Below, piece by piece: positions 3,574 to 32,163 of a DNA stretch of 33,540 nucleotides. The stretch is from positions 1 through 33,540 of the forward strand of contig DIWQ01000004.1 of assembly GCA_002423555.1 (NCBI GenBank), written 5' to 3'. The stretch comes from Patescibacteria group bacterium UBA6102. Lineage in GTDB: Bacteria > Patescibacteriota > Minisyncoccia > Minisyncoccales > UBA5738. A program made the position numbers and the translations under genes. The notes beneath the pieces are model-generated. The model was not told the origin of the DNA and did no database searches. It saw nothing but the letters and a program-made list of their open reading frames with translations. The stretch's first letter is position 1; every line of letters starts with the position of its first letter.

Positions 3574-5319
3574 ATGATTGGAGGGCGGAAAGCCAAAAAA
3601 GTTTTATGGTGCGGGTTGGCGGCGGTAGCGATGATTGCGCTGTTGCCGTTTTTTGCGCGGGCGGATAACTATGGCGATCAGGCGGCGTTCAACATTGACA
3701 AGCAATACGATTCGGCGGGAAGAAGCCAACTTTCGGCATCGCTGGTCTGGGCGGGAGCGAAGATCTATTTTTATGCCGACAATGCCTGGTGGAACAATTT
3801 GGATTCGTCGGAGCGTCAGCGATACGGCACTGTGCTTTCGGGTCTGGATGCGGAATTTTCACGACACATCCAGCCCAAGCTCACGGAGCTTTTTGGCGCT
3901 AGCGCCGGTTCCGGCCCATCCCGCAACGGCAAACTCACAATCTTGATTCATCAAATGATCAAGGGTACCGGCGGCTATATCAACACGGCGGATGGTTATT
4001 CCAAATACCAATCTCCCGGATCAAACGAAAGAGAGATGGTTTATTTCAATGTTTCTTTTGTTGACGCGCCGCTGGCAAAAACTTATCTGGCACATGAATA
4101 TACGCACTTGATCACCTTTAACCAAAAGGAACGTTTGCGCCACGTGATTGAAGAGGTCTGGCTCAACGAAGTCCGCGCCGAATATTCCTCCACGATTTTG
4201 GGTTATGATGCTCCGTTCGGAGGGAGCAATTTCCAGCAACGGGTGAGATCCTTTTTAAACGACTCCGGCAAAAGCTTGACGGAATGGGAAAACGTGCCGG
4301 CCAACTACGGCGCGGCGCATTTGTGGGCGCAATATGTTGTTGACCATTATGGCGTCGCGATATTGGCCGATTCCATGAAAAGCGACCAAACGGGAATTGC
4401 CTCCATTGATTACGCGCTGAGAAAAAACGGCTTTGATGTTGATTTCACCCAAGTTTTTCGCGACTGGATTGTCGCGCTGGCGGCCAATGATTGTTCAATC
4501 GGCCCGAAATATTGTTATAAATATCCGGATTTGCGGGAGTTTGCCGTTTCTCCCCGAATCAATTATCTGCCGGTCTCGGATCAGGTTTCCTTGTCGGTGA
4601 CCTACAACACGCCCTATTTTGCCGCTAATTGGCAAAAAATCACGGGCGGCTCCGGCAGTTTGCGCCTTGATTTTGCCGCCGCCGGGGAGCACAAATTTAT
4701 TGTGCCTTATTTGACTTGCGATTCTGCCGGAAAGTGCTCTGCCGGCGAACTGGAAACCGCCGCGGACGGCAATGCGATGTTGAAAATTGAAGATTTCGGC
4801 CGGCGTTATTCTTCACTGGTTTTGATGCCGTTCGGTTCGGGGAAAAATTTCGGCTTCGGTTCAGGGACAGGAACAATGTTGCCTTATTCGTTTAAAATTT
4901 CAATCGTGCCGACTGAAGTGGCACCCGCCGGAGAAACGGAAAACGAAAAATTGCAAATTGAGGCGTTGCAAAAACAGGTTGATGCATTAAAAGCCGAGAT
5001 TGCCCGCGTGATCGCAATTTTGGCGGCGCGAGTTTCGGTCGCGCCGAAATTTTCCTGCGGCGCGATTACCGCCGATTTATGTTCGGGCGCGGCAAACCGC
5101 GCGCAAATTGTTTGTCTGCAAGAATTTTTGAGATCGCAAGGCAGTTTGATTTATCCGGGCGGACTTTTGAGCGGCAATTTTGACGCCGCCACCCGCGCCG
5201 CGGTGATCCGCTTCCAGGAAAAGCACGCCGCCGAAATTCTTTGGCCGCTGGGGTTGAAATCCGGCACCGGCTACGTCGGCGCCGCCACCCGCGCCAAGAT
5301 CAACCAGTTAATGAAATAA
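3574..5319 (+). CDS. Secreted zinc metallopeptidase (gluzincin, HExxH...WLNE) with coiled coil and C-terminal peptidoglycan-binding domain
   Basis: Probable start is ATG 3574 (MIGGRKAKKVLWCGLAAVAMIALLPFFARA signal peptide); ATGs at 3550 and 3559 are also possible. HEYTH lies at 4093-4107, followed 20 residues later by the Glu of VWLNEV, an M1/MA-clan-like arrangement. The C-terminal LQEFLRSQG...GNFDAATRAAVIRFQEKH matches the PG_binding_1 pattern. Confidence 0.75.
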   Translation: MIGGRKAKKVLWCGLAAVAMIALLPFFARADNYGDQAAFNIDKQYDSAGRSQLSASLVWAGAKIYFYADNAWWNNLDSSERQRYGTVLSGLDAEFSRHIQPKLTELFGASAGSGPSRNGKLTILIHQMIKGTGGYINTADGYSKYQSPGSNEREMVYFNVSFVDAPLAKTYLAHEYTHLITFNQKERLRHVIEEVWLNEVRAEYSSTILGYDAPFGGSNFQQRVRSFLNDSGKSLTEWENVPANYGAAHLWAQYVVDHYGVAILADSMKSDQTGIASIDYALRKNGFDVDFTQVFRDWIVALAANDCSIGPKYCYKYPDLREFAVSPRINYLPVSDQVSLSVTYNTPYFAANWQKITGGSGSLRLDFAAAGEHKFIVPYLTCDSAGKCSAGELETAADGNAMLKIEDFGRRYSSLVLMPFGSGKNFGFGSGTGTMLPYSFKISIVPTEVAPAGETENEKLQIEALQKQVDALKAEIARVIAILAARVSVAPKFSCGAITADLCSGAANRAQIVCLQEFLRSQGSLIYPGGLLSGNFDAATRAAVIRFQEKHAAEILWPLGLKSGTGYVGAATRAKINQLMK

Positions 5320-5333
5320 CAATTAAAAGTATT

Positions 5334-6137
5334 ATGGATAAAAAAATCGGCATTGTCGGAGTGGGTGTTGTTGGTAATGCGGTTGCCAGTGTTATTCCGG
5401 GCGTGTTGCTCTATGATAAATACAAAAACATCGGTTCTGTTAAGGAGGTTAATGAAGCCGAGATTATTTTCGTGTGCGTTAATACTCCTTATAATCCCGA
5501 AAAAGGATGCGATATCTCTGCGGTGGATGAGGTTATTTCTCAAATCAAAGGAAACAAAATCATAGTCATAAAATCAACCGTCACTCCCGGAACAACCGAA
5601 AAAATGCAAGCAAAGTATCCACACCACTCCGTATTGTTCAATCCTGAATTTTTGCGCCAAGCGCATGCTACTGATGACATGAAAAATCCCGATGAGCAAG
5701 TTGTCGGGTATACCGCAAAAAGCAAGCAATACGCGCAAGAAATTTTGGATATTCTGCCCAAATCGGAGCATAACTTTATTGTTCCGTCCAAAGACGCGGA
5801 AATGGCAAAATATTTTTCAAACACCTTTTTAGCGCTTAAAGTTATTTTTGCCAACCAGATTTATGATGTATGCCAGAAAATGGGGATTGATTATGATGCG
5901 GTGAAAGAAGTGGCATCGGTCAGTCCGAGATTCGCGTTTTCTCATTTTGACGTAAATTTTGACGGCTACAGAGGTTATAGCGGCGCCTGCTTGCCTAAAG
6001 ATACCAAAGCTTTAATTAGATTTGGCGACGAAATCGGCGTTGACCTCTCCCTGCTTAAAGAAGCTGATATGATCAATAAAAAACTTTTGTTTTCCAATAA
6101 AGATATTTCCGGCGACCTTCTGAAATTATATCAATAA
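5334..6137 (+). CDS. UDP-sugar 6-dehydrogenase family protein (WbpA/Ugd-like), short form lacking the C-terminal UDP-binding domain
   Basis: Start set to ATG 5334 (MDKKIGIVGVGVVGNAV Rossmann motif); track start 5241 would overlap the upstream gene. Motifs FNPEFLRQA, AEMAKYFSNTFLALKVIFANQIYD and catalytic-Cys motif GACLPKD (Cys codon 5988-5990). Only about 48 aa follow the Cys. Confidence 0.7.
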   Translation: MDKKIGIVGVGVVGNAVASVIPGVLLYDKYKNIGSVKEVNEAEIIFVCVNTPYNPEKGCDISAVDEVISQIKGNKIIVIKSTVTPGTTEKMQAKYPHHSVLFNPEFLRQAHATDDMKNPDEQVVGYTAKSKQYAQEILDILPKSEHNFIVPSKDAEMAKYFSNTFLALKVIFANQIYDVCQKMGIDYDAVKEVASVSPRFAFSHFDVNFDGYRGYSGACLPKDTKALIRFGDEIGVDLSLLKEADMINKKLLFSNKDISGDLLKLYQ

Positions 6138-6145
6138 CGAAATAT

Positions 6146-6943
6146 ATGGAATACATAATTGTTGGCTCCGGTTTTATTTTCAGGCGGCACCTTCTTTCAA
6201 TAAAGGAAACCGGCGGCGAAATATTGGATGTTGTTAACGAAACGCACGGTCGGGGAGACGAATGGAAAAAAGCGATTACCAATCCCGACGCGGATTGCGT
6301 GGTTATTCTTGCGCCGAATTATTTACATTATGAAATCGCCAAGGCCGCCAATGAAGCGGGGAAGACCGTTTTGTGCGAAAAGCCGCTGGCGTTAAAATCC
6401 GAACACGTGAAAGATTTGGCTGACCGAAAAAATATTTTTGTGGTCCAGCAGTTGCATTATCACGAGGGAGTGATAAAAATGAGGCGTGAAATATCAAAAG
6501 ATAAACATTATGATATTCACATTGACGTTGATGTTCACCGCGACCGGCACTATTTTGACGGCTGGAAAGGCAATATGGAGTTATCCGGAGGGCCGTTATT
6601 TACTCTTGGTGTTCATTATTTTGAACTTTTGCTGTATCTGTTTGGCCCCGCGACCAGAGCACAGATGACCAGTTTTGACGGTAAAGCCGGCCAGGGGATC
6701 ATTGAAGGAGCCAATTACAACTGTCAATGGCGCGTGAGCGTGGGGGCTCCCGTTGGCCAAAACAAAAGATTTTTCAACGTTAACGGCATTGCCTTAAACC
6801 TTTCCGGCAAGGAAAACCTGGCCGAAGAGAACCTGCATAATTTCGTGTATCAGGATTTACTGCAAGGGAGGGGAGTGACCCCCGCACAAGCTCTTCCGGC
6901 AATTGAATTGATTGAAAAATTATATGACGATTACCATTCATAA
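6146..6943 (+). CDS. wbpB: Gfo/Idh/MocA-family oxidoreductase, WbpB-like (UDP-GlcNAcA 3-oxidase type)
   Basis: Motifs APNYLHYEIA...VLCEKPL, QQLHYHE, GWKG...SGGPLFTLGVHYFELLLYLFG and LHNFVYQDLLQGRG follow the WbpB-type layout as I recall it. Synteny with the acetyltransferase and aminotransferase genes supports the call. Confidence 0.6.
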   Translation: MEYIIVGSGFIFRRHLLSIKETGGEILDVVNETHGRGDEWKKAITNPDADCVVILAPNYLHYEIAKAANEAGKTVLCEKPLALKSEHVKDLADRKNIFVVQQLHYHEGVIKMRREISKDKHYDIHIDVDVHRDRHYFDGWKGNMELSGGPLFTLGVHYFELLLYLFGPATRAQMTSFDGKAGQGIIEGANYNCQWRVSVGAPVGQNKRFFNVNGIALNLSGKENLAEENLHNFVYQDLLQGRGVTPAQALPAIELIEKLYDDYHS

Positions 6944-7502: not shown

Positions 7503-8652
7503 TGCAAATATGGAATTTTTTGATTTGAAAAAGCAATATCAGGATCTAAAATCCGAGATTGACGCGGCGGTTTTGGATGTGCTTGAAGACGGAGTGTTTA
7601 TCGGCGGCCCGGCGGTGGAAAAATTTGAAAAAGAGGTTGCCGATTTTTTGGGGGTAAAGCATGCGGTCACTCTTAATTCCGGCACTGATGCGCTTTATTT
7701 GTCGCTAAGGGCGTTGGGGATTGGCGCGGGAGATGAGGTGATTACCACGGCATTCACTTTTTTTGCCACGGCCGAAGCGATCGCGGCCGCCGGCGCCAAA
7801 CCCGTATTCGTTGATATTGATGCGAAAACTTTTAACATTGACGCCGACCAAATTGAAGCGGCGATTACGGAAAAGACAAAAGCGATCATACCGGTGCATC
7901 TTTTCGGCCAAATGGCAGATATGGCGCCAATTAAGAAGATTGCGCAAAAACATAATCTGAAAATTATTGAAGATTGCGCGCAAGCAATCGGCGCCACTCA
8001 AATTATTAATGGCAAGGAAGTTAAGGCCGGAAATATTGGCGATTGCGGCTGTTTTTCTTTTTTCCCCACCAAAAACTTGGGTGCTTACGGTGACGGGGGA
8101 ATGGCGACGACCAATAACGACGAAATTGCGGCGAAAATCAGAATGTTAAAAGTTCACGGATCATCTCCCGAAAATAAATATAAAAATTTGGAAATCGGCG
8201 TCAATTCTCGTTTGGACGCGATTCAGGCCGCTATTTTGAGTGTCAAGATCAAATATCTTGATCAATGGAATGACCAGCGCGCGGCAATCGCCAATCGCTA
8301 TGGCGAGGCATTTGAAGGCGTTGGCGACATTGTTGCGCCGTTTGCCGCGCTGAACAATCGCCACATCTATCATCAATACACAATAAGAACCGCAAAACGC
8401 GATCAACTGGTGCAATTTTTGAAAAATGCGGAAATTCCCGCAATGATATACTTTCCTTTTCCGATGCACTTGGAGCCCGCATTGGGTTATTTGGGCTATA
8501 AGATGGGCGATTTTCCCGAAGCCGAACGCGCCGCCGCCGAAGTTTTGAGCCTGCCGATCTACCCGGAATTTACGAGAGCGTGTTGCGAATCAGTAGTTCG
8601 TGTAGTGGAAATTTTTTGCAGAAGTCATAAAATAAATCCGTTTAATAATTGA
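7492..8652 (+). CDS. wbpE: DegT/DnrJ/EryC1-family PLP aminotransferase, WbpE-like
   Basis: N-terminus EFFDLKKQYQDLKSEID...FIGGPAVEKFEKEVADFLG, then NSGTDALYLSLRALGIGAGDEVITTAFTFFAT and SFFPTKNLGAYGDGG (PLP Lys). Alternative start ATG 7510. Confidence 0.7.
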   Translation: MNRNANMEFFDLKKQYQDLKSEIDAAVLDVLEDGVFIGGPAVEKFEKEVADFLGVKHAVTLNSGTDALYLSLRALGIGAGDEVITTAFTFFATAEAIAAAGAKPVFVDIDAKTFNIDADQIEAAITEKTKAIIPVHLFGQMADMAPIKKIAQKHNLKIIEDCAQAIGATQIINGKEVKAGNIGDCGCFSFFPTKNLGAYGDGGMATTNNDEIAAKIRMLKVHGSSPENKYKNLEIGVNSRLDAIQAAILSVKIKYLDQWNDQRAAIANRYGEAFEGVGDIVAPFAALNNRHIYHQYTIRTAKRDQLVQFLKNAEIPAMIYFPFPMHLEPALGYLGYKMGDFPEAERAAAEVLSLPIYPEFTRACCESVVRVVEIFCRSHKINPFNN

Positions 8653-8795
8653 CAGTATCAATTTCTTTGCTATATTTTAGAATGATGATCAAGGGGGGAT
8701 TAATAAGGGAAGCGAGTGCTTTTATAAACCGAGGGCGTTGGATAACTGGCAAAATTGTCAAATTTGGAAAATTTACGTACGGAGGATTTTTAAAT

Positions 8796-8804: not shown

Positions 8805-8831
8805 TTGACGGCTACCCAACACCCTAAAACT

Positions 8832-10394
8832 ATGGCAATCTTAAAGATGGGAGAAAGAGTAATCTCTAACGAAGGGCCAGCTTTTGTTATCGCTGAAATA
8901 GGGCATAACCATCAAGGCAATCTTGGCGTAGCCTTGAATATGATTAAGACTGCGGCGGCCTGCGGAGTTAGCGCAGTCAAGTTTCAAAAACGAGACAATA
9001 AGCATCTTTATACTAAGGCGATGTATAATCGTTCCTATGATAACGAAAATAGTTTTGGTACTACCTATGGCGAGCATCGGGAATTCCTGGAATTTGATTT
9101 TGATGAATACAAACAACTTAAAAAATGCGCTGAAGATAATGGCGTAGAGTTTCTTTGTACAGCTTTTGATATTCCAAGCGTTGATTTTTTGGAAAAGCTC
9201 GGCGTCAACGGTTACAAGGTTGCATCCGGGGATTTAATGAACACTCCTATGCTTGAGCATATCGCTAAGCTTGGCAAACCGATGTTCGTTTCAACGGGTG
9301 CGGGGACGATGGATGAGGCGAAGATGGCATATACGGCAATTAAAAAATACAATGATCAATTGTGTTTTTTGCATGCCATTTCTTCATATCCGGCAGAATA
9401 CGAAGATCTTAACTTAAATGTTATTCCTACCTTGCAGAATGAATTCCCAGATATAATTGTCGGTTATTCCGGCCACGATAACGGTATTTTAGCGGCATCA
9501 ATAGCTTATATGCTGGGGGCTCGGGTGATTGAGAAGCATTTCACGATAAATCGAGCTTGGAAGGGAACGGATCATAAATTTTCGCTGGAACCGGATGGTA
9601 TGCGAAAACAAGTGAGAGATCTCAACCGTATAAAATCTGCTCTTGGCGAAAACGAAAGGAAGGTGTTTCCGATAGAAAAGGATTATCGTGCAAAACAAGG
9701 GAAAAGCATTTTTTCGGCGAAAAATTTGGTCGTGGGCACGATTTTGACAGAAAGCGACATCGTGATTAAATCGCCGGGCGGCGGCATGGAACCTTATAGA
9801 TTAAATGAGGTTATTGGAAAAAAACTAAACCTTTCAATTAATGAAGAAGAAATGATTAAACCGGAACAGCTTGCGGGTGGTAGTCCGGACAACCGCGAAA
9901 TAGCGCTGAGTATGAATGACATAGTCAGGAGATTAAAATTGATTGTCTTTGATTTTGACGGGATTTTTACGGATAACCGCGTAATTGCTATGCAAAATGG
10001 CACCGAGGGCGTTGCTTGTTGGAGAAGTGATGGATTGGGACTTGATGCCTTAAAAGAAACGGGAACAAGCGTTCTTGTTTTGTCCGCAGAGGAAAATCCT
10101 GTTGTTTCGGCGCGTTGCCAGAAGCTGGGTATTGAATGTATCCAGGGGTATCGGGACAAAGCCATTATCCTTAAAAAAGAACTTGGAAAAAGAGGGCTGG
10201 CGCTCGGTGAAATTGCTTATGTCGGGAATGATATTAACGATATTGAATGTTTAAAGATCGCCGGTTTACCGATGACTGTGGCTGATGCTTATTCTGAATT
10301 AAAGCCGTACGTAAAATATACCACAAAGAAGCCGGGAGGATACGGCGCGGTCAGGGAAATTTGCGACATGATTGCTAACATTAAAAATTTATAA
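8832..10394 (+). CDS. Fusion protein: NeuB-type sialic/ulosonic acid (9-phosphate) synthase with SAF domain + KdsC-type HAD phosphatase
   Basis: N-terminal part: FVIAEIGHNHQGNL...AVKFQKR, YSGHDNG, EKHFT, then a SAF-like NLVVGTILTESDIVIKSPGGG. The HAD domain starts at about nt 9933: LIVFDFDGIFTDNRV (DxD motif), SDGLGLDAL, YVGNDINDIECLK. The track start is TTG 8805; ATG 8832 or 8847 is more likely. Confidence 0.8.
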   Translation: MAILKMGERVISNEGPAFVIAEIGHNHQGNLGVALNMIKTAAACGVSAVKFQKRDNKHLYTKAMYNRSYDNENSFGTTYGEHREFLEFDFDEYKQLKKCAEDNGVEFLCTAFDIPSVDFLEKLGVNGYKVASGDLMNTPMLEHIAKLGKPMFVSTGAGTMDEAKMAYTAIKKYNDQLCFLHAISSYPAEYEDLNLNVIPTLQNEFPDIIVGYSGHDNGILAASIAYMLGARVIEKHFTINRAWKGTDHKFSLEPDGMRKQVRDLNRIKSALGENERKVFPIEKDYRAKQGKSIFSAKNLVVGTILTESDIVIKSPGGGMEPYRLNEVIGKKLNLSINEEEMIKPEQLAGGSPDNREIALSMNDIVRRLKLIVFDFDGIFTDNRVIAMQNGTEGVACWRSDGLGLDALKETGTSVLVLSAEENPVVSARCQKLGIECIQGYRDKAIILKKELGKRGLALGEIAYVGNDINDIECLKIAGLPMTVADAYSELKPYVKYTTKKPGGYGAVREICDMIANIKNL

Positions 10395-10412: not shown

Positions 10413-11246
10413 ATGGGAAACAATTATCTTAATTCTTTATATAACTTAAAAGACAAGGTAATTGTTGTAACCGGAGCGGCGGGACAGCTTGGGGGGCAAT
10501 ATGTTCGCGCTATGCTTGAGGTCGGTTGCCGGGTGGTTGCCATTGATTATGATCTAAGCAATCCCAAAGGTAATTTATCGGCTTTGCGATCTGATAATTT
10601 GATGGTTCTTGAGGTTGATATTACAAAAAAAACTTCGATTCAAGGAGCACTGAAAAAAATTTGCGATCAGTTCGGCAAGGTTGACGGATTAATCAACAAT
10701 GCCGCAATTGATGCACCGCCCGGCGGATCGGACGAAAATGTCGGCCCTTTTGAGACTTATCCGGAAACTGCCTGGGACAAAATGATGGAAGTAAATTTGA
10801 AGGGCATGTTTTTGTGTTGTCAGGTTTTTGGTTCCGATATGGTTGCAAAAGGGAGGGGCAGTATTGTTAATATCGCGTCAATTTATGGTATGTTATCTCC
10901 CGACCAGCGCATATATGAATACAAGTATAAAAATGCTGGAGCAAAAGCCAAGCCTTTTTTTAAGCCGGTGGCTTATTCCGTTACCAAATCCGGCGTCTAC
11001 AATTTAACCAGATGGTTGGCGACGTATTGGGCGCCAAGCAATATTCGGGTTAATACTTTGACCTTAGCGGGAGTTTTTAACAATCAGGACGAACCGTTTC
11101 TCGGGAAATATATTCAAAAGGTTCCGCTAGGAAGGATGGCCAAACAGGAGGAGTATTGTGGGGCGATATTGTTCCTGCTTTCAGATGCTTCATCATATAT
11201 GACTGGTTCAAATATGGTTGTTGACGGCGGTTTTTGTTGCTGGTAA
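10413..11246 (+). CDS. Short-chain dehydrogenase/reductase (SDR)
   Basis: VIVVTGAAGQLGG cofactor motif, NNAA, and catalytic YSVTKSG (YxxxK). Confidence 0.8.
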   Translation: MGNNYLNSLYNLKDKVIVVTGAAGQLGGQYVRAMLEVGCRVVAIDYDLSNPKGNLSALRSDNLMVLEVDITKKTSIQGALKKICDQFGKVDGLINNAAIDAPPGGSDENVGPFETYPETAWDKMMEVNLKGMFLCCQVFGSDMVAKGRGSIVNIASIYGMLSPDQRIYEYKYKNAGAKAKPFFKPVAYSVTKSGVYNLTRWLATYWAPSNIRVNTLTLAGVFNNQDEPFLGKYIQKVPLGRMAKQEEYCGAILFLLSDASSYMTGSNMVVDGGFCCW

Positions 11247-11274: not shown

Positions 11275-12759
11275 ATGAGTCAATTTTTTAAAAATTTTAT
11301 TGGAGGAAAATGGGTTGATCCGGTGTCCGGAGATTTTTTTGAAAACAAAAATCCGTCTGATATCGGCGAGGTAATGGGACTGTTTCCAAGGTCGGGAAAA
11401 GCGGATATTGATGCGGCGGTTTTGGCCGCTTCCGCCGTTTTTGATAATTGGCGAAGTATGCCTCCCCACGAGAGGGCGAAAATTATTTTTGAGGCGGGAA
11501 AGATTATGTCCGGTCGAAAAAAAGAGTTGGCGGAAATTATCTCTAAAGAAAATGGAAAGACGGTCAAATCCGCGATGGGCGATGTTCAATCCGCAATTGA
11601 TATGTCTTTTTTTATCGGTGGGGAGGGATATCGATGGTATGGAAAAACCGCTCATTCGGCGCTTCCCCAGCGGTTTGCGATGACCAAGCGTTATCCGATC
11701 GGAATAGTCGGGCTCATTCCGTCTTGGAATTTCCCGATGGGACTGGCGGGATGGAGGGTTTTTCCGGCGCTTTTTTGCGGTAATGCCGTGATCATGAAAT
11801 CGGAAGAAAATACACCGGAAAGTGCTCACTGCATAACTGAAATTCTTGATGAAGCGGGTTTGCCGAAAGGTGTTCTTAATCTTATTCATGGCTTGGGAAG
11901 CGAAGCGGGGGATGCGTTAGTCAACCATCCCGGAGTATCAATGATTTCATTTACGGGTTCGAGTAAGATCGGGAGCCTTGTCGGAGTTAATTGCCTGAAA
12001 AAATTGGCTAAGACCTCCTTGGAGCTTGGCGGTAAAAATGCAGTGATAGTTATGGATGATGCCGACATCAATCTGGCCGTCAACGGGGTTGTCGCCGGGG
12101 CCTTTTCCCTATCTGGCCAGCGTTGCACTGCCACAAGCCGTCTGATTTTACAGGATGGCATTTACGATTTTTTTATGGAAAGGCTCCTTAACGCCACTGG
12201 TAAGTTAAAGATTGGCCCTGGTAGCGACGATGCTTCCGATGTGACACCCTTGATTAGCAAGGTTCAATGCGAACGTATATTGAACTGGATAGAACGGGCA
12301 AGGGAAGATGGTGCTAAAGTGATCCGAGGCGGGGAAAGATTGGAAGGTGGTGTTTACGATAAGGGGTATTATATCAATCCGACTATTATTATTGATGCGT
12401 TGCCTGATTCCTCAATAGCCAGAGAAGAAATTTTTGGGCCGGTACTCGTGGTTTTTCGCGTCCAATCGTTTGACGAAGCGGTTAAAATTGCGAATAACGC
12501 GCGTTACGGTTTATCAGCTTCGCTGTTTACCAAGGACTTGAATAGAGCTTTCACTTTCTTTGATGATATCCAAACTGGGGTTTGCTATATTAACGCACCA
12601 ACCTATGGCGGAGAACCACATATGCCGTTTGGGGGCGTAAAAGATTCCGGACTTGGCTACCGGGAGGTTGGCTGGGCCGGAGTCGAAGCTTATTCGGAAG
12701 TTAAAACAATATACGTTGATTACAGCGCGAAAATTCAGACAATTCAAGAAAAAAAATAA
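11275..12759 (+). CDS. NAD(P)-dependent aldehyde dehydrogenase family protein
   Basis: N-terminus FIGGKWVD, LELGGKNA (catalytic Glu), GQRCTATSR (catalytic Cys) and EEIFGPV. Confidence 0.85.
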   Translation: MSQFFKNFIGGKWVDPVSGDFFENKNPSDIGEVMGLFPRSGKADIDAAVLAASAVFDNWRSMPPHERAKIIFEAGKIMSGRKKELAEIISKENGKTVKSAMGDVQSAIDMSFFIGGEGYRWYGKTAHSALPQRFAMTKRYPIGIVGLIPSWNFPMGLAGWRVFPALFCGNAVIMKSEENTPESAHCITEILDEAGLPKGVLNLIHGLGSEAGDALVNHPGVSMISFTGSSKIGSLVGVNCLKKLAKTSLELGGKNAVIVMDDADINLAVNGVVAGAFSLSGQRCTATSRLILQDGIYDFFMERLLNATGKLKIGPGSDDASDVTPLISKVQCERILNWIERAREDGAKVIRGGERLEGGVYDKGYYINPTIIIDALPDSSIAREEIFGPVLVVFRVQSFDEAVKIANNARYGLSASLFTKDLNRAFTFFDDIQTGVCYINAPTYGGEPHMPFGGVKDSGLGYREVGWAGVEAYSEVKTIYVDYSAKIQTIQEKK

Positions 12760-12772
12760 TTTTTTGAGCTCA

Positions 12773-14695
12773 ATGGTAAATATATCTTTTGTTGATAAAA
12801 AAGAAATTGATCGGATAATTAATGCTGTTACAGATAAAAATTCCAGACTTGATATTTTGGCTGATATCTGCCGCCTTAATGCGCTTTCCGCGGTCAAGAA
12901 AGCTGGTTCCGGCCATCTTGGGTCCAGCTTCTCGGCAATGGAAATTATGGTTGCGATGTATTTTTCAGAATTGAATTTGACTCAAGCAGGATTAAAAAAT
13001 AAAGACAGGGATATTTATTTTTCTTCAAAGGGTCATGATTGTCCAGGGCATTATTCCGTGCTTATGGCTGCTGGGATTTTGCCATTTGAAAAATTGATTA
13101 ACTTGAGGCGCTTGGGAGGATTGGACGGTCATCCGGATGTCGCGATTCCTGGAATGGAGGCAAACACCGGCTCTTTGGGGATGGGCATTTCCAAAGCCAA
13201 GGGAATGGCGATTGCAAAGAAAATGAAAGGTAGCGGCGGTCGGATATTTGTGATGTTGGGCGATGGCGAACTCCAGGAGGGTCAGATATGGGAATCATTG
13301 CAAACCACCGTTGCCCAGAAAGTAAGCAATATTACCGCAATTGTTGATTTTAACAAAATTCAGACCGATCGTCCGATTGTCGCGAATGTTGACTTGGGCG
13401 ATTTGGAAAGTAAGTTCCGAATTTTTGGTTGGCACGCTGAACGTTGTAACGGTCACGATTTTGCCCAGCTTCAGGAAGCATTTGAAAAATTAAAACAAAT
13501 TGTCAATAAGCCTAAAGTTTTGATTGCCGATACTGTCAAAGGTGAAGGCGTGTCGTTTATGGAAGGTGGCGAAATTGTGAAAACCGGATGCGGAACATAC
13601 AAATGGCATTCCGGCGCTCCGCAAGATGATGACTATACCAGGGCTTTTTCTGAAATTCTGGATAGAATCAATAAAAAACTTTCCGGGTTTGGCTCGGCTC
13701 AGTTAGAATTGAAAGATGTGGAAAAACGCGAATCCAGAGTCCACTTGAAAGATATTGCCGAGAAGGTCGTTAATACATACGCGGATACCCTGGTTAGGTT
13801 GGGCGCGGAGAGAAAAGATATTGTGGTTCTGGACGCCGATCTTGCATGTGATTGCGGGCTACGCCCGTTTGAGCAGGCATATCCGGATCGCTTTATTGAA
13901 CATGGTATTGCCGAACAGGATATGGTTTCGACTGCCGGCGGCCTCGCCAAGCAGGGTTTTCTTCCCATTGTGAATTCCTTCGGTGTCTTTCTCTCATCGC
14001 GTTCCAACGAACAAATTTACAATAATGCCACCGAACTGACAAAAATAATTTATGTTTGCCATTATTCGGGCATGATACCGGCTGGACCCGGTAAATCGCA
14101 TCAGAGCGTGCGCGATATCTCGCTTTTTGGTGCGTTGCCGAATATGGTTATCGTTGAGCCGGTTAACGCGGTTGAGACAAAAGCCACTCTTGAATGGTGC
14201 GTGAAATTCGCAAAAGAAAATTGCATGATCCGGCTTATAATTTCCCCGTCGCCGCAAACGATCAGTTTGCCGCAAAATTATGAGTTCATATTTGGCAGGG
14301 GATCAGTTATCCGGGAAGGCAACGATGCGGTTATATTTGCCTACGGTCCGGTAATGGCTAACGAGGCGCTTAAAGCTGGCGATGAACTGGCTAAGCGAGA
14401 GTTTTCTTTGAAAATAATCAATATGCCATGGCTTAATCGGGTTGACATAGGTTGGTTTGAAAGCGTTATCGGGGATTGTGCGGCAATCTATGTGCTTGAT
14501 GATCACTTTATTTACGGCGGCCTGGGAGATTCGCTTTTAAATGCAATAAATTGTTCCAAGGCACTGAAGCAAAAGAAATTCAAGAAATTCGGCATAGAAA
14601 ATGAATATCCAGCGTGCGGCACTCCCAAAGAAGTTCTTTCTTACCACAAATTGGACGGTGAAAGCCTGGCCGCCCGGATTCTTAAAGATAAATAG
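12773..14695 (+). CDS. Transketolase-family ThDP enzyme (short-type N- and C-terminal halves fused in one 640-aa chain)
   Basis: Start set to ATG 12773; track start 12653 overlaps the ALDH gene. Motifs SGHLGSSFSAMEIMVAMY, ThDP motif GDGELQEGQIWES, and pyrimidine-binding EHGIAEQDMVSTAGGLA. Confidence 0.75.
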   Translation: MVNISFVDKKEIDRIINAVTDKNSRLDILADICRLNALSAVKKAGSGHLGSSFSAMEIMVAMYFSELNLTQAGLKNKDRDIYFSSKGHDCPGHYSVLMAAGILPFEKLINLRRLGGLDGHPDVAIPGMEANTGSLGMGISKAKGMAIAKKMKGSGGRIFVMLGDGELQEGQIWESLQTTVAQKVSNITAIVDFNKIQTDRPIVANVDLGDLESKFRIFGWHAERCNGHDFAQLQEAFEKLKQIVNKPKVLIADTVKGEGVSFMEGGEIVKTGCGTYKWHSGAPQDDDYTRAFSEILDRINKKLSGFGSAQLELKDVEKRESRVHLKDIAEKVVNTYADTLVRLGAERKDIVVLDADLACDCGLRPFEQAYPDRFIEHGIAEQDMVSTAGGLAKQGFLPIVNSFGVFLSSRSNEQIYNNATELTKIIYVCHYSGMIPAGPGKSHQSVRDISLFGALPNMVIVEPVNAVETKATLEWCVKFAKENCMIRLIISPSPQTISLPQNYEFIFGRGSVIREGNDAVIFAYGPVMANEALKAGDELAKREFSLKIINMPWLNRVDIGWFESVIGDCAAIYVLDDHFIYGGLGDSLLNAINCSKALKQKKFKKFGIENEYPACGTPKEVLSYHKLDGESLAARILKDK

Positions 14696-16078: not shown

Positions 16079-16723
16079 ATGGATAAATGGGTGGAATATT
16101 TTGAAAATACAAACAGAAATCTCTTTGACCAGTGCTTGCGCAACCGGCGTTTGATTGAATTGGTGATTCAAAATACGCCGGCTGGCGGTCGTATACTTGA
16201 GGTAGGATGTGGCACAGCATTGCTGTCTTTAATACTGGCTGATCATGGTTTTGAGGTTACCGCTCTTGATATAAGTAAGGAAGTTGTGAATTACGCTCAA
16301 AAAAGAGCTTGTTTGGGTAAGATTAAATTGAAGTTTATCCAAGGAGACAGCTTTAATCTCAATTCATTGTTTGAGAATCGTTTTTTTGATACAGTTTGCC
16401 ATAGTGGCGTCATGGAGCATTTTAGCGATGCTGATATTATTAGGGGCCTATTAGAACAAAGACGGGTATCGAAAAGGGTTATTTTCAATGTTCCAAACAG
16501 TCGGGTTAAATCAGCCCCCAATCTTTTTGGAGATGAAAGGTTTTTAAACCAAGAAAAATGGATGGAATTGATCAAGAAAGCAGGATTTAACAAGGTTAAA
16601 GTATTTGGGGGATATGACCTGCCACGATATGTTTATTTTATCTTGCCTGGCGTTTTCTTTAATCAGAGGTTTTCTTTTTGGTGGAAATATTTTAGTAAAC
16701 ATTCAATTTTTGTATGCGAATAA
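16079..16723 (+). CDS. Class I SAM-dependent methyltransferase
   Basis: Motif I RILEVGCGTALLSL plus the acidic loop VTALDIS. ATG 16079 is preferred over TTG 16073. Confidence 0.75.
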   Translation: MDKWVEYFENTNRNLFDQCLRNRRLIELVIQNTPAGGRILEVGCGTALLSLILADHGFEVTALDISKEVVNYAQKRACLGKIKLKFIQGDSFNLNSLFENRFFDTVCHSGVMEHFSDADIIRGLLEQRRVSKRVIFNVPNSRVKSAPNLFGDERFLNQEKWMELIKKAGFNKVKVFGGYDLPRYVYFILPGVFFNQRFSFWWKYFSKHSIFVCE

Positions 16724-16731
16724 AAGTCAAT

Positions 16732-17442
16732 ATGAGGATATTGGGATTTATACCTGCGAGAGCGGGATCAAAAAGAATATCAGGGAAGAACATCATGCCT
16801 TTAGCGGGTAAGCCTTTGCTCGCCCATACCATTGAGGCCGCCAAAAAGTCAAAATATATAAATAGGGTGTTGGTTTCGACGGATTCGGAAAATATCGCAA
16901 AAATAGCCGAACAGTATGGTGCCGAAGTTCCTTTTTTAAGGCCGGAGGAAATTTCCAGAACAGATTCCACCGAAATGCAATTCTTTGAACATGCCTTGGG
17001 TTGGCTTGTTAAAAATGAAAACTATGTTCCTGATCTGATAGTTTTGCTTTATCCGACATCGCCGTTTAGAAAGCCGGAAACTATTGATCGTGCCATTGAG
17101 AAGATTTTTGAATACCCCGATGCGGATTCTTTAAGATCGGTCAGGTTGTGTTCTGAACATCCGCATAAGATGTGGGTCATTGACAATAATTTGTTGAAGC
17201 CGTTGATTAAAAGCGAAAAATCAAGCGATCACACTCTTTCTTACCAATCACTGCCGAAAGTTTATATCCAAAATGCCAGTATTTACATTACCAAACCGAG
17301 AACCATAAGAGAGATGAAATCACCGATTGGGAATATCGTCATACCTTTCATTATGGATGAGATGGAGTCAATTGATATAAACAACCCAATTGATTTTAAA
17401 ATTGCCGAAATGGTTGCAAAAGATATGAAAATAAAAAGATAA
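16732..17442 (+). CDS. CMP-ulosonic acid synthetase (acylneuraminate cytidylyltransferase, NeuA/KdsB-like)
   Basis: RILGFIPARAGSKRISGKNIMPLAGKPLL and VLVSTDSENI, the CTP_transf_3 signature. ATG 16732 is preferred; 16714 would overlap the upstream gene. Confidence 0.8.
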   Translation: MRILGFIPARAGSKRISGKNIMPLAGKPLLAHTIEAAKKSKYINRVLVSTDSENIAKIAEQYGAEVPFLRPEEISRTDSTEMQFFEHALGWLVKNENYVPDLIVLLYPTSPFRKPETIDRAIEKIFEYPDADSLRSVRLCSEHPHKMWVIDNNLLKPLIKSEKSSDHTLSYQSLPKVYIQNASIYITKPRTIREMKSPIGNIVIPFIMDEMESIDINNPIDFKIAEMVAKDMKIKR

Positions 17443-30764: not shown

Positions 30765-31397
30765 ATGCGCTACGAAGAATTTAAATTGCGTCTCAAAAAA
30801 TTTATAGTTTTTTCGCTTGACGATATCAAAAAAATTGATCCGCGTTTTTATCGATCTCGCTTGAATGAGTGGCAAGACAAAAAATATATTAAAAAATTAC
30901 GGCGGGGATATTATATTTTTTCCGATATTGATTTGGACGAGAGAAAAATTTTTTTTATTGCTAATAGAATATATCATCCTTCATATGTTTCCCTTGAATC
31001 GGCGCTGTCTTATTATAATTTAATTCCCGAAGGAGTTTATATGATTACTTCAGTTTCCAGCGCGAAAACTTTTGGGCTTGAAACGCCAATCGGAAAATTT
31101 TCTTATCGGCGAATCAAGCCGGATTTGATGTTTGGTTATCGCTTGGAAAATTTTAACGATCGGAATTGCAAAATTGCTGAAATGGAAAAAGCCGCCTTGG
31201 ACTATCTTTATCTTAATCCGGCGATTATCAAAGAAGGCGATTTTGCGGAGTGGCGGTTTAATAGTCGTGAATTTCTTGCTCGCGCGAATATGAAAAAATT
31301 TCGTGAATATGCCTCAAGATTTAAAAATAAAAGATTTGAAAATCGCGTTAAGCTATTTTTGAAGATGATCAAGAAATCAAATTATGCTGTCTCTTAA
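30765..31397 (+). CDS. abiEi: AbiEi-family type IV antitoxin / transcriptional regulator
   Basis: N-terminal wHTH-like segment ending ...LRRGYYIF, and the YVSLESALSYYNLIPE motif characteristic of AbiEi. Overlaps the downstream NTase gene by 14 nt. Confidence 0.75.
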   Translation: MRYEEFKLRLKKFIVFSLDDIKKIDPRFYRSRLNEWQDKKYIKKLRRGYYIFSDIDLDERKIFFIANRIYHPSYVSLESALSYYNLIPEGVYMITSVSSAKTFGLETPIGKFSYRRIKPDLMFGYRLENFNDRNCKIAEMEKAALDYLYLNPAIIKEGDFAEWRFNSREFLARANMKKFREYASRFKNKRFENRVKLFLKMIKKSNYAVS

Positions 31398-32163
31398 ACA
31401 AATTGAAAAACAATATCCCGAATCTTTACGTTTGTTCAAACGCGGAATTTTGCGCGAATATTTGCAATATAAAATTCTTGAAATAATTTTTAATTCCGAG
31501 TTCGCCAATAAGCTTTCTTTTTTGGGCGGGACCGCTTTGCGGCTGGTTTATGATAACCAAAGATTTTCCGAAGATCTTGATTTTGATAATTTTGGTCTTA
31601 CGGAACCCGAGTTTAAAATTATGGCGGAAAAAATTAAATTGGGCTTAGAGGCGCAAAGCATAAAAACGCAAATCAACGTTTCGGCAAAAGGCGCATATCG
31701 ATGCAATGTTCGCTTCCCCGACTTGCTTTTTGGGGAAGGATTATCGCCGCATCAAGGAGAAAAAATATTGATTCATATTGACACTGCCTCGCATGATTTT
31801 TTTTATCGGCCGCTTGAAAAAGTTATCAATAAATTTGATGTTTTTGCCGAGATTTTCACAACGCCACCCGATATTTTGCTTTCGCAAAAAATTTTTGCAA
31901 TTTTCAACAGAAAACGAGCCAAGGGTCGCGACTTTTACGATTTGGTTTTTTTGATGTCGTTTGCGAAGCCCAATTATGATTATTTGAAAGTTAAAATTGG
32001 AGTGAGTGATTTTGACCAATTAAAAGCCAAGCTGATCAAAATTTCTCAAGAATTGGACTTTGAAGAATTGGTGCGCGATGTTCAAATATTTTTGTTTAAT
32101 CCCAAAGACGACAAAAAAATTAAATTGTTTTTGCCCTATATCAAGTCGCTGGAAATGAAATGA
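31384..32163 (+). CDS. abiEii: AbiEii/AbiGii-family nucleotidyltransferase toxin (DUF1814)
   Basis: LREYLQYKILEII, NTase motif LSFLGGTALRLVY...RFSEDLDFD, and KRAKGRDFYDL. Confidence 0.8.
   Translation: MLSLKQIEKQYPESLRLFKRGILREYLQYKILEIIFNSEFANKLSFLGGTALRLVYDNQRFSEDLDFDNFGLTEPEFKIMAEKIKLGLEAQSIKTQINVSAKGAYRCNVRFPDLLFGEGLSPHQGEKILIHIDTASHDFFYRPLEKVINKFDVFAEIFTTPPDILLSQKIFAIFNRKRAKGRDFYDLVFLMSFAKPNYDYLKVKIGVSDFDQLKAKLIKISQELDFEELVRDVQIFLFNPKDDKKIKLFLPYIKSLEMK

What the first reader, a model, noticed from the sequence alone, without database searches (positions are those of the whole stretch)
8832..10394. Single-chain fusion of a NeuB-type synthase and a KdsC-type phosphatase implies a 9-phosphate (KDN/eukaryote-like) ulosonic acid route
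Canonical bacterial NeuB condenses PEP with a free hexosamine and needs no phosphatase. Here the synthase plus SAF domain is covalently joined (linker around 9860-9930) to a HAD phosphatase of the KdsC / Neu5Ac-9-P / KDN-9-P phosphatase type (DFDG, GNDIND motifs). That arrangement makes sense only if the condensation product is phosphorylated. This is the case in the animal Neu5Ac-9-P pathway and in the Bacteroides thetaiotaomicron KDN-9-P synthase/phosphatase pair, where the two are separate adjacent genes. No NeuC-type hydrolysing 2-epimerase or ManNAc kinase is present in the window, so the aldose-phosphate substrate is not the canonical one or comes from central metabolism (for example mannose-6-P giving KDN).
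Basis: partly seen in the sequence, partly recalled or inferred. Interest (0 to 1): 0.6.

Follow-up and report, generated by a model that had tools for sequence, protein, structure and literature searches.

The report
Fused sugar-acid synthase and phosphatase
One gene in a tiny (0.88 Mb) bacterial genome joins an animal-type sialic-acid-family synthase to the phosphatase that should remove the phosphate from its product, which indicates that a widespread, uncharacterised surface-sugar pathway starts from a phosphorylated sugar.

Summary
ORF 8832-10394 (520 aa, no stop) encodes NeuB + SAF + a ~20-residue linker + a KdsC/YrbI-family HAD domain. Independent metagenome assemblies carry the same fused protein.

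- In two trees the synthase falls outside the PseI and LegI/NeuB anchors. It sits in a clade whose basal members are paired with BT1713-type Kdn-9-P phosphatases.
- It carries published NanS-type markers (Asp134, no Arg314) plus a clade-specific loop motif (KR, TYGEHR).
- The HAD keeps its catalytic motifs (DFDG, S, K, GNDIND).
- In other phyla the same HAD is a separate gene directly downstream. It fused at least four times, and in eight cassettes an unrelated HAD replaces it.
- The genome (97.9% complete) has no NeuC, NanE, ROK kinase, second NeuB or second KdsC.

Caveats:
- The HAD belongs to neither the KdsC nor the Kdn-9-P phosphatase equivalog; its closest structure is the uncharacterised 3MMZ.
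- About a third of complete cassettes show no phosphatase gene.
- Chain length is untested.
- Conserved SDR, ALDH and transketolase neighbours suggest Kdn would be an intermediate, not the end product.

This scan has already reported the cassette on three other genomes; the fusion is the new part. I rate it a new variant of a known kind, of moderate interest.

The parts
8832..10394 (+). Fused synthase-phosphatase gene (520 aa from the ATG; an alternative TTG start lies at 8805)
   Evidence: Continuous ORF. Domain hits. Fused homologues from other assemblies.
8940..9656 (+). NeuB (TIM-barrel) synthase domain, residues 37-275
   Evidence: PF03102, E 2e-79. The family-wide catalytic residues E22, K50, Q52, K129, S132, S154, Y186, S213, H215, E234, H236 and D247 are all present.
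8988..8993 (+). K53-R54, a clade marker; the PseI/LegI/NeuB anchors have T-[Y/F] here
   Evidence: Column counts.
9063..9080 (+). TYGEHR loop motif (residues 78-83). It is shared by the cassette clade and the Kdn-type clade and absent from the PseI/LegI/NeuB anchors. It is a candidate phosphate-binding loop.
   Evidence: The alpha2-beta2 loop of human NanS is implicated in binding the phosphorylated substrate (Cotton et al. 2014, as cited in PMC8208679).
9231..9233 (+). D134, where N. meningitidis NeuB has E134
   Evidence: The E134D change is reported for eukaryotic and archaeal synthases in PMC8208679.
9705..9872 (+). SAF (antifreeze-like) domain, residues 292-347. S314 (9771-9773) replaces the Arg314 that is essential in N. 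meningitidis NeuB.
   Evidence: PF08666. R is present in 5 of 5 anchors and S/G/C in the cassette and Kdn-type clades. PMC8208679.
9873..9932 (+). Interdomain linker, residues 348-367
   Evidence: pLDDT below 50 at residues 350-358. Linker length varies by about 40 residues among fused homologues.
9933..10388 (+). KdsC/YrbI-family (C0-type) HAD phosphatase domain, residues 368-519
   Evidence: TIGR01670 at 107.3 and 110.4 bits. The best solved structure is 3MMZ at 122.8 bits, followed by KdsC entries.
9951..9962 (+). HAD motif I, D374-F-D376-G (nucleophile and general acid/base)
   Evidence: Invariant in 23 fused proteins and at least 90% conserved in the fused and adjacent HADs.
10224..10241 (+). 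HAD motif IV, GNDIND (first Asp replaced by Asn; the signature of the cassette-type HAD)
   Evidence: The same GNDxND motif is in 3MMZ. The Kdn-type and housekeeping KdsC copies have GDDxxD.
8649..8676 (+). Promoter-like site (TTGACA, 16 nt, TG-TATATT; 11 of 12 matches) in the 180-nt gap upstream of the gene
   Evidence: This is a consensus match only; the total number of sites in the region is not above shuffled controls.
10413..11246 (+). SDR, the next cassette gene (starts 19 nt after the fusion's stop)
   Evidence: Conserved directly after the synthase or HAD in other phyla.
11275..12759 (+). Aldehyde dehydrogenase, cassette gene
12653..14695 (+). Fused transketolase-like enzyme, cassette gene. 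It is the only transketolase found in this genome.
16714..17442 (+). CMP-ulosonic acid cytidylyltransferase (PseF/NeuA/KdsB type), the presumed activator of the final sugar

Best explanation
The gene encodes a bifunctional enzyme that performs the first two steps of a CMP-ulosonic-acid pathway. The N-terminal NanS/Kdn-9-P-synthase-like NeuB+SAF module condenses PEP with an aldose phosphate to give a 3-deoxy-2-ulosonic acid carrying a terminal phosphate. The aldose phosphate is most likely a hexose 6-phosphate such as Man-6-P, which I put at roughly 55-60%. The C-terminal KdsC-family HAD domain (3MMZ type, motif IV GNDxND) then removes that phosphate. The freed terminal hydroxyl is what the following cassette enzymes (SDR, transketolase-like enzyme, aldehyde dehydrogenase) need in order to remodel or oxidise the tail. 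The PseF-like cytidylyltransferase then activates the sugar. The fusion is a stop-codon-loss join of two genes that are adjacent, and often overlapping, in other phyla. Shown here: the architecture, intact catalytic motifs in both domains, the phylogenetic position, the marker residues, the conserved pairing, repeated fusion and non-orthologous replacement of the phosphatase. Inferred: the substrate, the chain length and the order of the later steps.
For: Domains and motifs.

Rosetta-stone pattern: the same HAD subfamily is a separate 170-180-aa gene directly downstream of the synthase in L006, L008 and L016, and in 36 of 86 loci overall. C-terminal fusion shows 6 parsimony changes in at least four separate groups. 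HAD-NeuB (P0147, P0171, P0173) and CMP-transferase-HAD-NeuB (P0139) fusions also exist in other branches.

Non-orthologous replacement: in 8 cassettes without the KdsC-type HAD, an unrelated HAD_2-type hydrolase sits directly after the transketolase. It never occurs together with the KdsC-type HAD. Of 37 complete cassettes, 25 carry a phosphatase gene.

Phylogeny: the synthase is separated from the PseI (pseBCFGI context) and LegI/NeuB (LegB/LegC/NeuC context) anchors. It is nested above Kdn-type pairs whose HADs reach the BT1713 equivalog cut-off (L094 247 bits, L082 184 bits, cut-off 180).

Markers: D134 and loss of R314 are as published for eukaryotic NanS (PMC8208679). KR53-54 and TYGEHR78-83 are clade-specific motifs that I place in the same loop region as the NanS alpha2-beta2 loop. 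All are equally conserved in cassettes with and without the HAD.

Genome: there is one NeuB and one KdsC-like domain, and no Epimerase_2, NanE or ROK above cut-off.
Against: No biochemistry exists for any member of this clade.

The HAD reaches neither the KdsC equivalog (105 bits against 208) nor the Kdn-9-P phosphatase equivalog (80 against 180). Its closest structure, 3MMZ, is uncharacterised.

The usual Mg-binding first Asp of motif IV is Asn.

12 of 37 complete cassettes show no phosphatase gene within 10 kb. Of 46 genomes lacking an adjacent HAD, only 17 have any KdsC-family hit. A dedicated phosphatase is therefore dispensable, or is supplied by unrelated enzymes.

A supply of Man-6-P in this genome is not shown. 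There is no type I PMI, and only a 144-aa cupin scoring 24.7 bits on the type II PMI model.

The anchors in the trees are defined by annotation and gene context. They are not the biochemically characterised proteins (BT1714, human NANS, N. meningitidis NeuB), which I could not obtain as sequences.
Confidence: 0.7

Rival explanations
1. The mechanism is the same (phosphorylated aldose, then dephosphorylation), but the product is not a nine-carbon acid. The synthase would use a shorter aldose phosphate such as erythrose-4-P, ribose-5-P or arabinose-5-P, possibly supplied by the cassette transketolase. The SDR and ALDH would then oxidise the freed terminal CH2OH to a carboxylate. This rival concerns substrate identity only and overlaps with the best explanation on everything else.
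For: The cassette transketolase is the only transketolase in this genome. No clear PMI or other Man-6-P route was found. The HAD matches neither the Kdn-9-P phosphatase nor the KdsC equivalog. In Thermosulfuriphilus the cassette is followed by a KpsC/KpsS-like (Kdo-transferase family) gene.
Against: The nearest outgroups are Kdn-type pairs. The synthase shares the loop motif, D134 and the lack of R314 with the NanS/Kdn type. The one characterised Kdn-9-P synthase whose specificity I could read did not accept Ara-5-P (PMC6200933).
Confidence: 0.28
2. The HAD acts at a different step from the synthase product. It might dephosphorylate the sugar phosphate before condensation, or act on a later intermediate. 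The synthase would then use a free sugar, as bacterial NeuB does.
For: The HAD is an optional cassette member and forms a distinct subfamily of unknown specificity.
Against: Every characterised member of the KdsC/YrbI family named in the NCBIfam and PDB hits, other than the phenylphosphate carboxylase subunit, acts on ulosonate terminal phosphates. The synthase lacks the Arg314 that PMC8208679 reports as essential in N. meningitidis NeuB, and it carries NanS-type markers. The HAD gene almost always follows the synthase directly, often with overlapping stop and start codons.
Confidence: 0.12
3. The HAD domain is a non-catalytic oligomerisation or regulatory module, like the HAD-like C-terminal domain of mammalian CMP-sialic acid synthetase (PDB 3EWI family).
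For: The motif IV Asp-to-Asn change. KdsC-family proteins are tetramers, which could scaffold a dimeric synthase (my own knowledge, not tested here). 3EWI appears among the PDB hits at 64.9 bits.
Against: Motif I (both Asp), motif II Ser, motif III Lys and GNDxND are invariant or at least 90% conserved in fused and free-standing copies. The domain also exists as an independent gene. It is replaced by an unrelated HAD hydrolase in some cassettes, which fits an enzymatic role rather than a structural one.
Confidence: 0.07

Closest known systems
Bacteroides thetaiotaomicron Kdn pathway: BT1714 (Kdn-9-P synthase) and BT1713 (Kdn-9-P phosphatase)
   Same: A NeuB-family synthase acting on a sugar 6-phosphate, followed by a C0-type KdsC-family HAD phosphatase and then CMP activation. 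Kdn-type pairs of this kind (L094, L082) are the nearest outgroups of the window's clade (PMC6200933).
   Different: In B. thetaiotaomicron the two are separate genes; here they form one chain. The window HAD scores 80 bits on the BT1713 equivalog model (cut-off 180) and has GNDxND instead of GDDxND. Here the pair is followed by an SDR, an ALDH and a transketolase, which the Kdn-type loci lack.
Animal Neu5Ac-9-P route (NANS synthase plus NANP phosphatase)
   Same: A phosphorylated substrate and product. The window shares with eukaryotic NanS the Asp at position 134 and the loss of Arg314 (PMC8208679). It also has a conserved loop motif in the region that I equate with the NanS alpha2-beta2 loop; that equivalence is my inference.
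   Different: No ManNAc-6-P supply is present (no GNE/NeuC, NanE or ROK). From my own knowledge, NANP belongs to a different HAD class from KdsC. No animal sequence was available for direct alignment.
PDB 3MMZ, 'putative HAD family hydrolase' (uncharacterised structural-genomics entry)
   Same: The best solved relative of the HAD domain (122.8 bits), with the same GNDVND motif IV.
   Different: It is a stand-alone protein. No function or paper was found.
KdsC (Kdo-8-P phosphatase) of lipopolysaccharide biosynthesis
   Same: The same subfamily model, TIGR01670, and the same motifs I-III and C-terminal GGxGAVRE.
   Different: Below the KdsC equivalog cut-off (105 bits against 208). No KdsA-type partner is present, and KdsD is lacking because the only SIS protein in the genome is GlmS.
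Bacterial NeuB, LegI and PseI (free-sugar nonulosonic acid synthases)
   Same: The same fold and the same PEP- and metal-binding residues.
   Different: Below the equivalog cut-offs (TIGR03569 294 bits against 399.65; TIGR03586 227 against 340). Separated in the trees. Lacks Arg314. No UDP-sugar-hydrolysing epimerase partner.

Membership tests
NeuB family (PF03102) with SAF domain | Match to the family model above the gathering cut-off, with the metal- and PEP-binding residues present | tested here: met
   266.9 bits against a cut-off of 22.1. E22, K50, Q52, K129, S132, S154, Y186, S213, H215, E234, H236 and D247 are all present. SAF scores 20.1 bits, just under its cut-off of 21, but it is folded in the model.
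N-acetylneuraminate synthase NeuB/NnaB equivalog (TIGR03569) | Score at or above the curated equivalog cut-off | tested here: not met
   294.2 bits against 399.65.
Pseudaminic acid synthase PseI equivalog (TIGR03586) | Score at or above the curated equivalog cut-off | tested here: not met
   227.5 bits against 340.25. PseI anchors serve as the outgroup in the trees.
Phosphorylated-substrate synthases (NanS / Kdn-9-P synthase type) | Sequence markers reported for eukaryotic NanS: Asp at N. meningitidis position 134 and no Arg314 | tested here: met
   D134 and S314. The markers are from PMC8208679. The window also has a conserved loop motif (KR53-54, TYGEHR78-83); equating it with the NanS alpha2-beta2 loop is my inference. 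No characterised NanS sequence was in the alignment.
Phosphorylated-substrate synthases (NanS / Kdn-9-P synthase type) | Phylogenetic grouping with synthases that are paired with Kdn-9-P phosphatase equivalogs, away from free-sugar synthases | tested here: met
   FastTree support 91 and IQ-TREE SH-aLRT 82, then 97, for the clade that excludes the LegI/NeuB/PseI anchors. The Kdn-type pairs are basal.
Phosphorylated-substrate synthases (NanS / Kdn-9-P synthase type) | Catalysis with a sugar 6-phosphate and not with the free sugar | not testable with these tools
   Needs an enzyme assay.
KdsC/YrbI subfamily of HAD phosphatases (TIGR01670) | Score at or above the subfamily cut-off | tested here: met
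   107.3 bits against 106.95; 110.4 bits in the genome search. This is a marginal pass.
HAD phosphatase superfamily | Catalytic motifs I (DxD), II (S/T), III (K) and IV (acidic pair) | tested here: met
   D374/D376, S418, K443 and G-N466-D467-I-N-D470. The first motif-IV Asp is Asn, and this is conserved throughout the subfamily.
KdsC equivalog (NF007019, Kdo-8-P phosphatase) | Score at or above the curated cut-off | tested here: not met
   105.2 bits against 208.
Kdn-9-P phosphatase equivalog (NF058599, BT1713 type) | Score at or above the curated cut-off | tested here: not met
   80.2 bits against 180. Free-standing cassette HADs score 85-103 bits. The Kdn-type neighbours L094 and L082 score 247 and 184 bits.

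The most novel reading that the evidence does not exclude
The fused enzyme is the committed entry point of an undescribed pathway found across many phyla. An animal-type, phosphate-dependent synthase and phosphatase would make a Kdn-like acid. Once its tail is unmasked by the phosphatase, an SDR, a transketolase-like enzyme and an aldehyde dehydrogenase would shorten or oxidise it to a dicarboxylic (heptulosaric-type) ulosonic acid. That acid would be CMP-activated and displayed on the surface of, among others, ultra-small CPR-like bacteria. The repeated fusion would reflect selection for channelling of the phosphorylated intermediate in genomes that have no back-up sugar phosphatases.
Probability: 0.35. 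Interest if true: 0.75.

Novelty: new variant of a known kind. Interest (0 to 1): 0.5.

Why it matters
Nearly all bacterial nonulosonic-acid pathways described so far start from free sugars released from UDP-sugars. The phosphate-dependent route is known from animals, one Bacteroides species and one alga.

This work shows that a large bacterial and archaeal clade of NanS-like synthases is tied to a phosphatase in three ways: as a neighbour, as a repeated fusion, or through an unrelated replacement. That gives gene-fusion evidence that the phosphorylated route is common in environmental microbes.

The fusion also marks the entry step of a conserved cassette of unknown product. Sources annotate these proteins simply as 'sialic acid synthase', which hides this.

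Finally, the fused protein is a convenient single polypeptide for assay, and cultured carriers of the cassette exist (for example Thermosulfuriphilus ammonigenes).

Tried and rejected
1. Characterised reference sequences (BT1714, human NANS, N. meningitidis NeuB). They could not be obtained as session sequences. PDB hits are shown only as alignments, and looking up ten representatives by cluster returned no organism names. I used context-defined anchors from plasmids instead.

2. The idea that cassettes without a HAD rely on housekeeping KdsC. Only partly borne out. Thermosulfuriphilus has a KdsC elsewhere, but 29 of 46 such genomes have no KdsC-family hit at all. These are MAGs, so absence is not proven.

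3. All-against-all clustering of neighbouring ORFs. It was unreliable in high-GC genomes because spurious long ORFs won, so I replaced it with query-based maps and Pfam scans of the gaps.

4. Literature. Searches for 3MMZ, BT1713/BT1714, NeuB-HAD fusion, heptulosaric acid biosynthesis and teichulosonic acid found no description of this fusion or cassette. The Daughtry et al. specificity paper is not held.

5. Man-6-P supply. There is no type I PMI. A 144-aa cupin barely passes the type II PMI model and looks like a generic cupin. I left this unresolved.

6. Assembly or frameshift artefact. Rejected, because the same fused reading frame occurs in independent assemblies.

7. Vertical inheritance. 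None of 60 relatives (0.3-1.4 Mb genomes) carries the fusion; their best NeuB homologue is 42% identical. Together with the lower G+C of about 9-24 kb, this points to acquisition of the cassette.

8. No complex prediction or fold search was run, because sequence matches to solved structures were already unambiguous.
Full report
**What is there.** The + strand carries one uninterrupted ORF from 8805 (TTG) or 8832 (ATG) to 10394.
- Pfam finds NeuB (residues 37-275, E 2e-79), SAF (292-347) and a HAD hit.
- NCBIfam places residues 368-519 in the KdsC/YrbI subfamily: 107.3 bits against a cut-off of 106.95, and 110.4 bits in the six-frame genome search.
VFDFDGIFTD lies at 9945-9974 and GNDIND at 10224-10241.
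- The linker is residues 348-367 (9873-9932). An AlphaFold2 model built on 23 fused homologues has a mean pLDDT of 88, and the only stretch below 50 is residues 350-358.
- The fusion is not an assembly error. P0002 (93% identical, 14 member sequences), P0003 (90%) and about 20 more proteins of 530-565 aa at 45-61% identity share the architecture. Their linkers differ in length by about 40 residues while both domains stay conserved.

**Host and surroundings.** The assembly is 0.88 Mb at 97.9% completeness. Its 60 nearest relatives have genomes of 0.3-1.4 Mb. The gene opens a block of lower G+C after a 180-nt gap that holds an 11-of-12 promoter-like site. It is followed by:
- an SDR, an aldehyde dehydrogenase and a fused transketolase-like gene;
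- a Wzx flippase and a methyltransferase;
- a PseF-like cytidylyltransferase and a TagF/BFO_1060-like transferase.

None of the 60 relatives has the fusion, and their best NeuB homologue is 42% identical. The cassette therefore looks acquired.

**Is the synthase of the phosphorylated-substrate kind?** It reaches neither the NeuB equivalog (294 bits against 399.65) nor the PseI equivalog (227 against 340). Solved NeuB, PseI and SpsE structures match it at only 130-152 bits.

I built trees from the window, the fused proteins, 80 genome loci, sampled 50%-identity representatives and context-defined anchors. The anchors were:
- two PseI genes inside pseBCFGI and pseGHI clusters;
- a LegI/NeuB gene beside LegB, LegC and NeuC;
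- two further NeuB-family genes.

FastTree (137 sequences) and IQ-TREE (74 sequences) agree.
- All free-sugar anchors fall outside a clade that contains the window (support 91; SH-aLRT 82, next node 97).
- A subclade (support 97; SH-aLRT 91 and 97) holds every locus with the SDR-ALDH-transketolase cassette.
- The branches just below it are synthases followed by HADs that reach or approach the NCBIfam equivalog cut-off (180 bits) for the B. thetaiotaomicron Kdn-9-P phosphatase: L094 at 247 bits, L082 at 184, L089 at 169 and L086 at 166. These loci have no SDR, ALDH or transketolase.

A published comparison reports three points about eukaryotic NanS: the alpha2-beta2 loop favours the phosphorylated substrate, E134 of N. 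meningitidis NeuB is replaced by Asp, and the essential Arg314 is lost (PMC8208679, which cites Cotton et al. 2014 and Joseph et al. 2013). My alignment gives the following:
- The window, the cassette clade and the Kdn-type clade have K53-R54, T78-Y-G-x-H82-R/K83, D134 and S/G/C at position 314.
- All five anchors have Arg314 and lack both KR and TYGxHR. Four of the five have Glu134.
- The family-wide PEP- and metal-binding residues are intact.

Equating the TYGEHR motif with the NanS alpha2-beta2 loop is my inference. My recollection that human NANS carries a TYGEHK motif is from memory only and was not tested.

**Is the phosphatase domain functional, and does it belong to the pathway?** Across 31 fused and 28 free-standing cassette HADs, four motifs are at least 90% conserved or invariant: motif I (DFDGVFTD), the motif II Ser, the motif III Lys and GNDxND. 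The C-terminal GGxGAVRE is conserved as well. Kdn-type and housekeeping KdsC copies have GDDxxD instead. GNDxND is therefore the signature of a third subfamily. Its only solved member is the uncharacterised entry 3MMZ (122.8 bits, GNDVND), for which I found no paper. The domain is below both the KdsC equivalog (105 bits against 208) and the Kdn-9-P phosphatase equivalog (80 against 180).

Gene context ties the HAD to the synthase.
- In a Dehalococcoidia contig and a groundwater contig, the 170-176-aa HAD gene follows the 350-aa synthase directly, overlapping it by 4 nt in one and 12 nt after it in the other. SDR, ALDH and transketolase come next.
- Over 86 loci, the HAD is fused in 4, adjacent in 36 and nearby in 1.
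- The C-terminal fusion needs 6 state changes on either tree and occurs in at least four separate groups.
- Other NeuB branches carry HAD-NeuB and cytidylyltransferase-HAD-NeuB fusions.
- In 8 Acidobacteriota and Gemmatimonadota cassettes that lack the KdsC-type HAD, an unrelated HAD_2-type hydrolase sits directly after the transketolase. It never co-occurs with the KdsC-type HAD.
- Of 37 loci with all three tailoring genes, 25 carry a phosphatase gene: 3 fused, 13 adjacent, 1 near and 8 alternative.

**Evidence that limits the claim.**
- Twelve of the 37 complete cassettes show no phosphatase within 10 kb. Some, such as Thermosulfuriphilus, are tight SYN-SDR-ALDH-TK-CMPT operons.
- Of 46 genomes without an adjacent HAD, only 17 have any KdsC-family hit. 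These are MAGs, so absence is not proven.
- The synthase markers are equally conserved in cassettes with and without the HAD. This argues for the same substrate, with the phosphatase supplied in trans. The Prymnesium Kdn study and plant Kdo work describe such redundancy.
- The motif-IV Asp-to-Asn change is unusual for an active HAD.
- Chain length is inferred only from relatedness to Kdn-type enzymes.
- Supply of a hexose 6-phosphate other than Fru-6-P/GlcN-6-P is not shown in this genome. GlmS is the only SIS protein. There is one PGM/PMM-family gene and no type I PMI. A 144-aa cupin at 24.7 bits is the only type II PMI hit.
- No NeuC-type epimerase, NanE or ROK kinase passes cut-off. An animal-like ManNAc-6-P supply is therefore not supported either.

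**Mechanism proposed.** The NanS-like module condenses PEP with an aldose phosphate, and the HAD removes the terminal phosphate. This unmasking is required by either plausible reading of the neighbouring genes.
- Reading 1: oxidation of the penultimate hydroxyl, transketolase-type removal of the two-carbon ketol and oxidation of the stump. This was proposed by an earlier agent of this scan (e1-4532808).
- Reading 2: direct oxidation of the terminal CH2OH by the SDR plus ALDH, with the transketolase supplying the aldose phosphate.

I could not discriminate between the two. The cassette transketolase is the only one in the genome.

**Confidence.** I put 0.7 on 'bifunctional synthase/phosphatase on a phosphorylated route'. 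Within that, I put about 55-60% on a nine-carbon, Kdn-9-P-like intermediate.

**Novelty.** The two-step chemistry is known from BT1714/BT1713 and from animal NANS/NANP. The new points are the single-chain form, its repeated origin, the distinct GNDxND HAD subfamily and its attachment to an uncharacterised cassette. Papers I could search do not describe the fusion, and sources label such proteins only 'sialic acid synthase'. This scan has already reported the cassette, with separate phosphatase genes, on three other genomes and on this window. Only the fusion and the phosphatase analysis are added here.

Noticed in passing
window 12653-14695: The cassette's transketolase-like gene is the only Transketolase_N match in the whole 97.9%-complete genome. 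Either this organism has no housekeeping transketolase, or this gene does both jobs.
   Followed up: partly
window 5241-6943: The UDP-sugar 6-dehydrogenase-like ORF (298 aa) matches only profile positions ~70-295 of 413 and has no C-terminal domain. The following Gfo/Idh/MocA ORF is short (265 aa). The WbpA/B-like genes may be truncated or decaying.
   Followed up: no
L017:16230-16928, L026:16172-16918 and six further loci (L033, L036, L039, L040, L049, L064): An unrelated HAD_2/Hydrolase_like protein directly follows the transketolase in Acidobacteriota and Gemmatimonadota cassettes that lack the KdsC-type HAD. This is an apparent non-orthologous replacement of the phosphatase.
   Followed up: partly
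P0137, P0139, P0146 (metagenome proteins): Three unusual NeuB architectures. P0137 has a NeuB domain interrupted by a Hint (intein-like) domain. P0139 is a triple fusion of cytidylyltransferase, HAD and NeuB. P0146 is a 963-aa protein with two NeuB stretches, SAF and a cytidylyltransferase.
   Followed up: no
L003:16199-17884 (Thermosulfuriphilus ammonigenes CP048877.1): In this cultured bacterium the cassette (without a HAD) is followed by a Capsule_synth (KpsC/KpsS-like, Kdo-transferase family) gene. This hints that the product is transferred in the way Kdo is. It is a culturable system for testing the pathway.
   Followed up: no
L070:8782-9720; L056:13523-14485: Some cassettes carry extra genes in the gap before the transketolase or cytidylyltransferase: a DHDPS/NanA-family aldolase-like gene in L070 and a ketopantoate-reductase-like gene in L056.
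   Followed up: no
L114 (Streptomyces sp. NBC_01237, NZ_CP108509.1, about 821.7-822.7 kb): A 48%-identical synthase followed by the SDR and the transketolase-like gene lies on a 1.6-Mb linear replicon that has no annotation in the collection. The cassette therefore also occurs in cultured Streptomyces.
   Followed up: partly
window 8649-8676: A near-consensus sigma-70-like promoter (TTGACA, 16 nt, extended -10 TG-TATATT) lies in the only sizeable intergenic gap of the locus, just upstream of the fused gene and at the edge of the lower-G+C block.
   Followed up: no
window 31384-32163: An AbiEii-type nucleotidyltransferase toxin gene sits between the glycan locus and murB, preceded by a 210-aa ORF with no family match that could be its antitoxin.
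   Followed up: no
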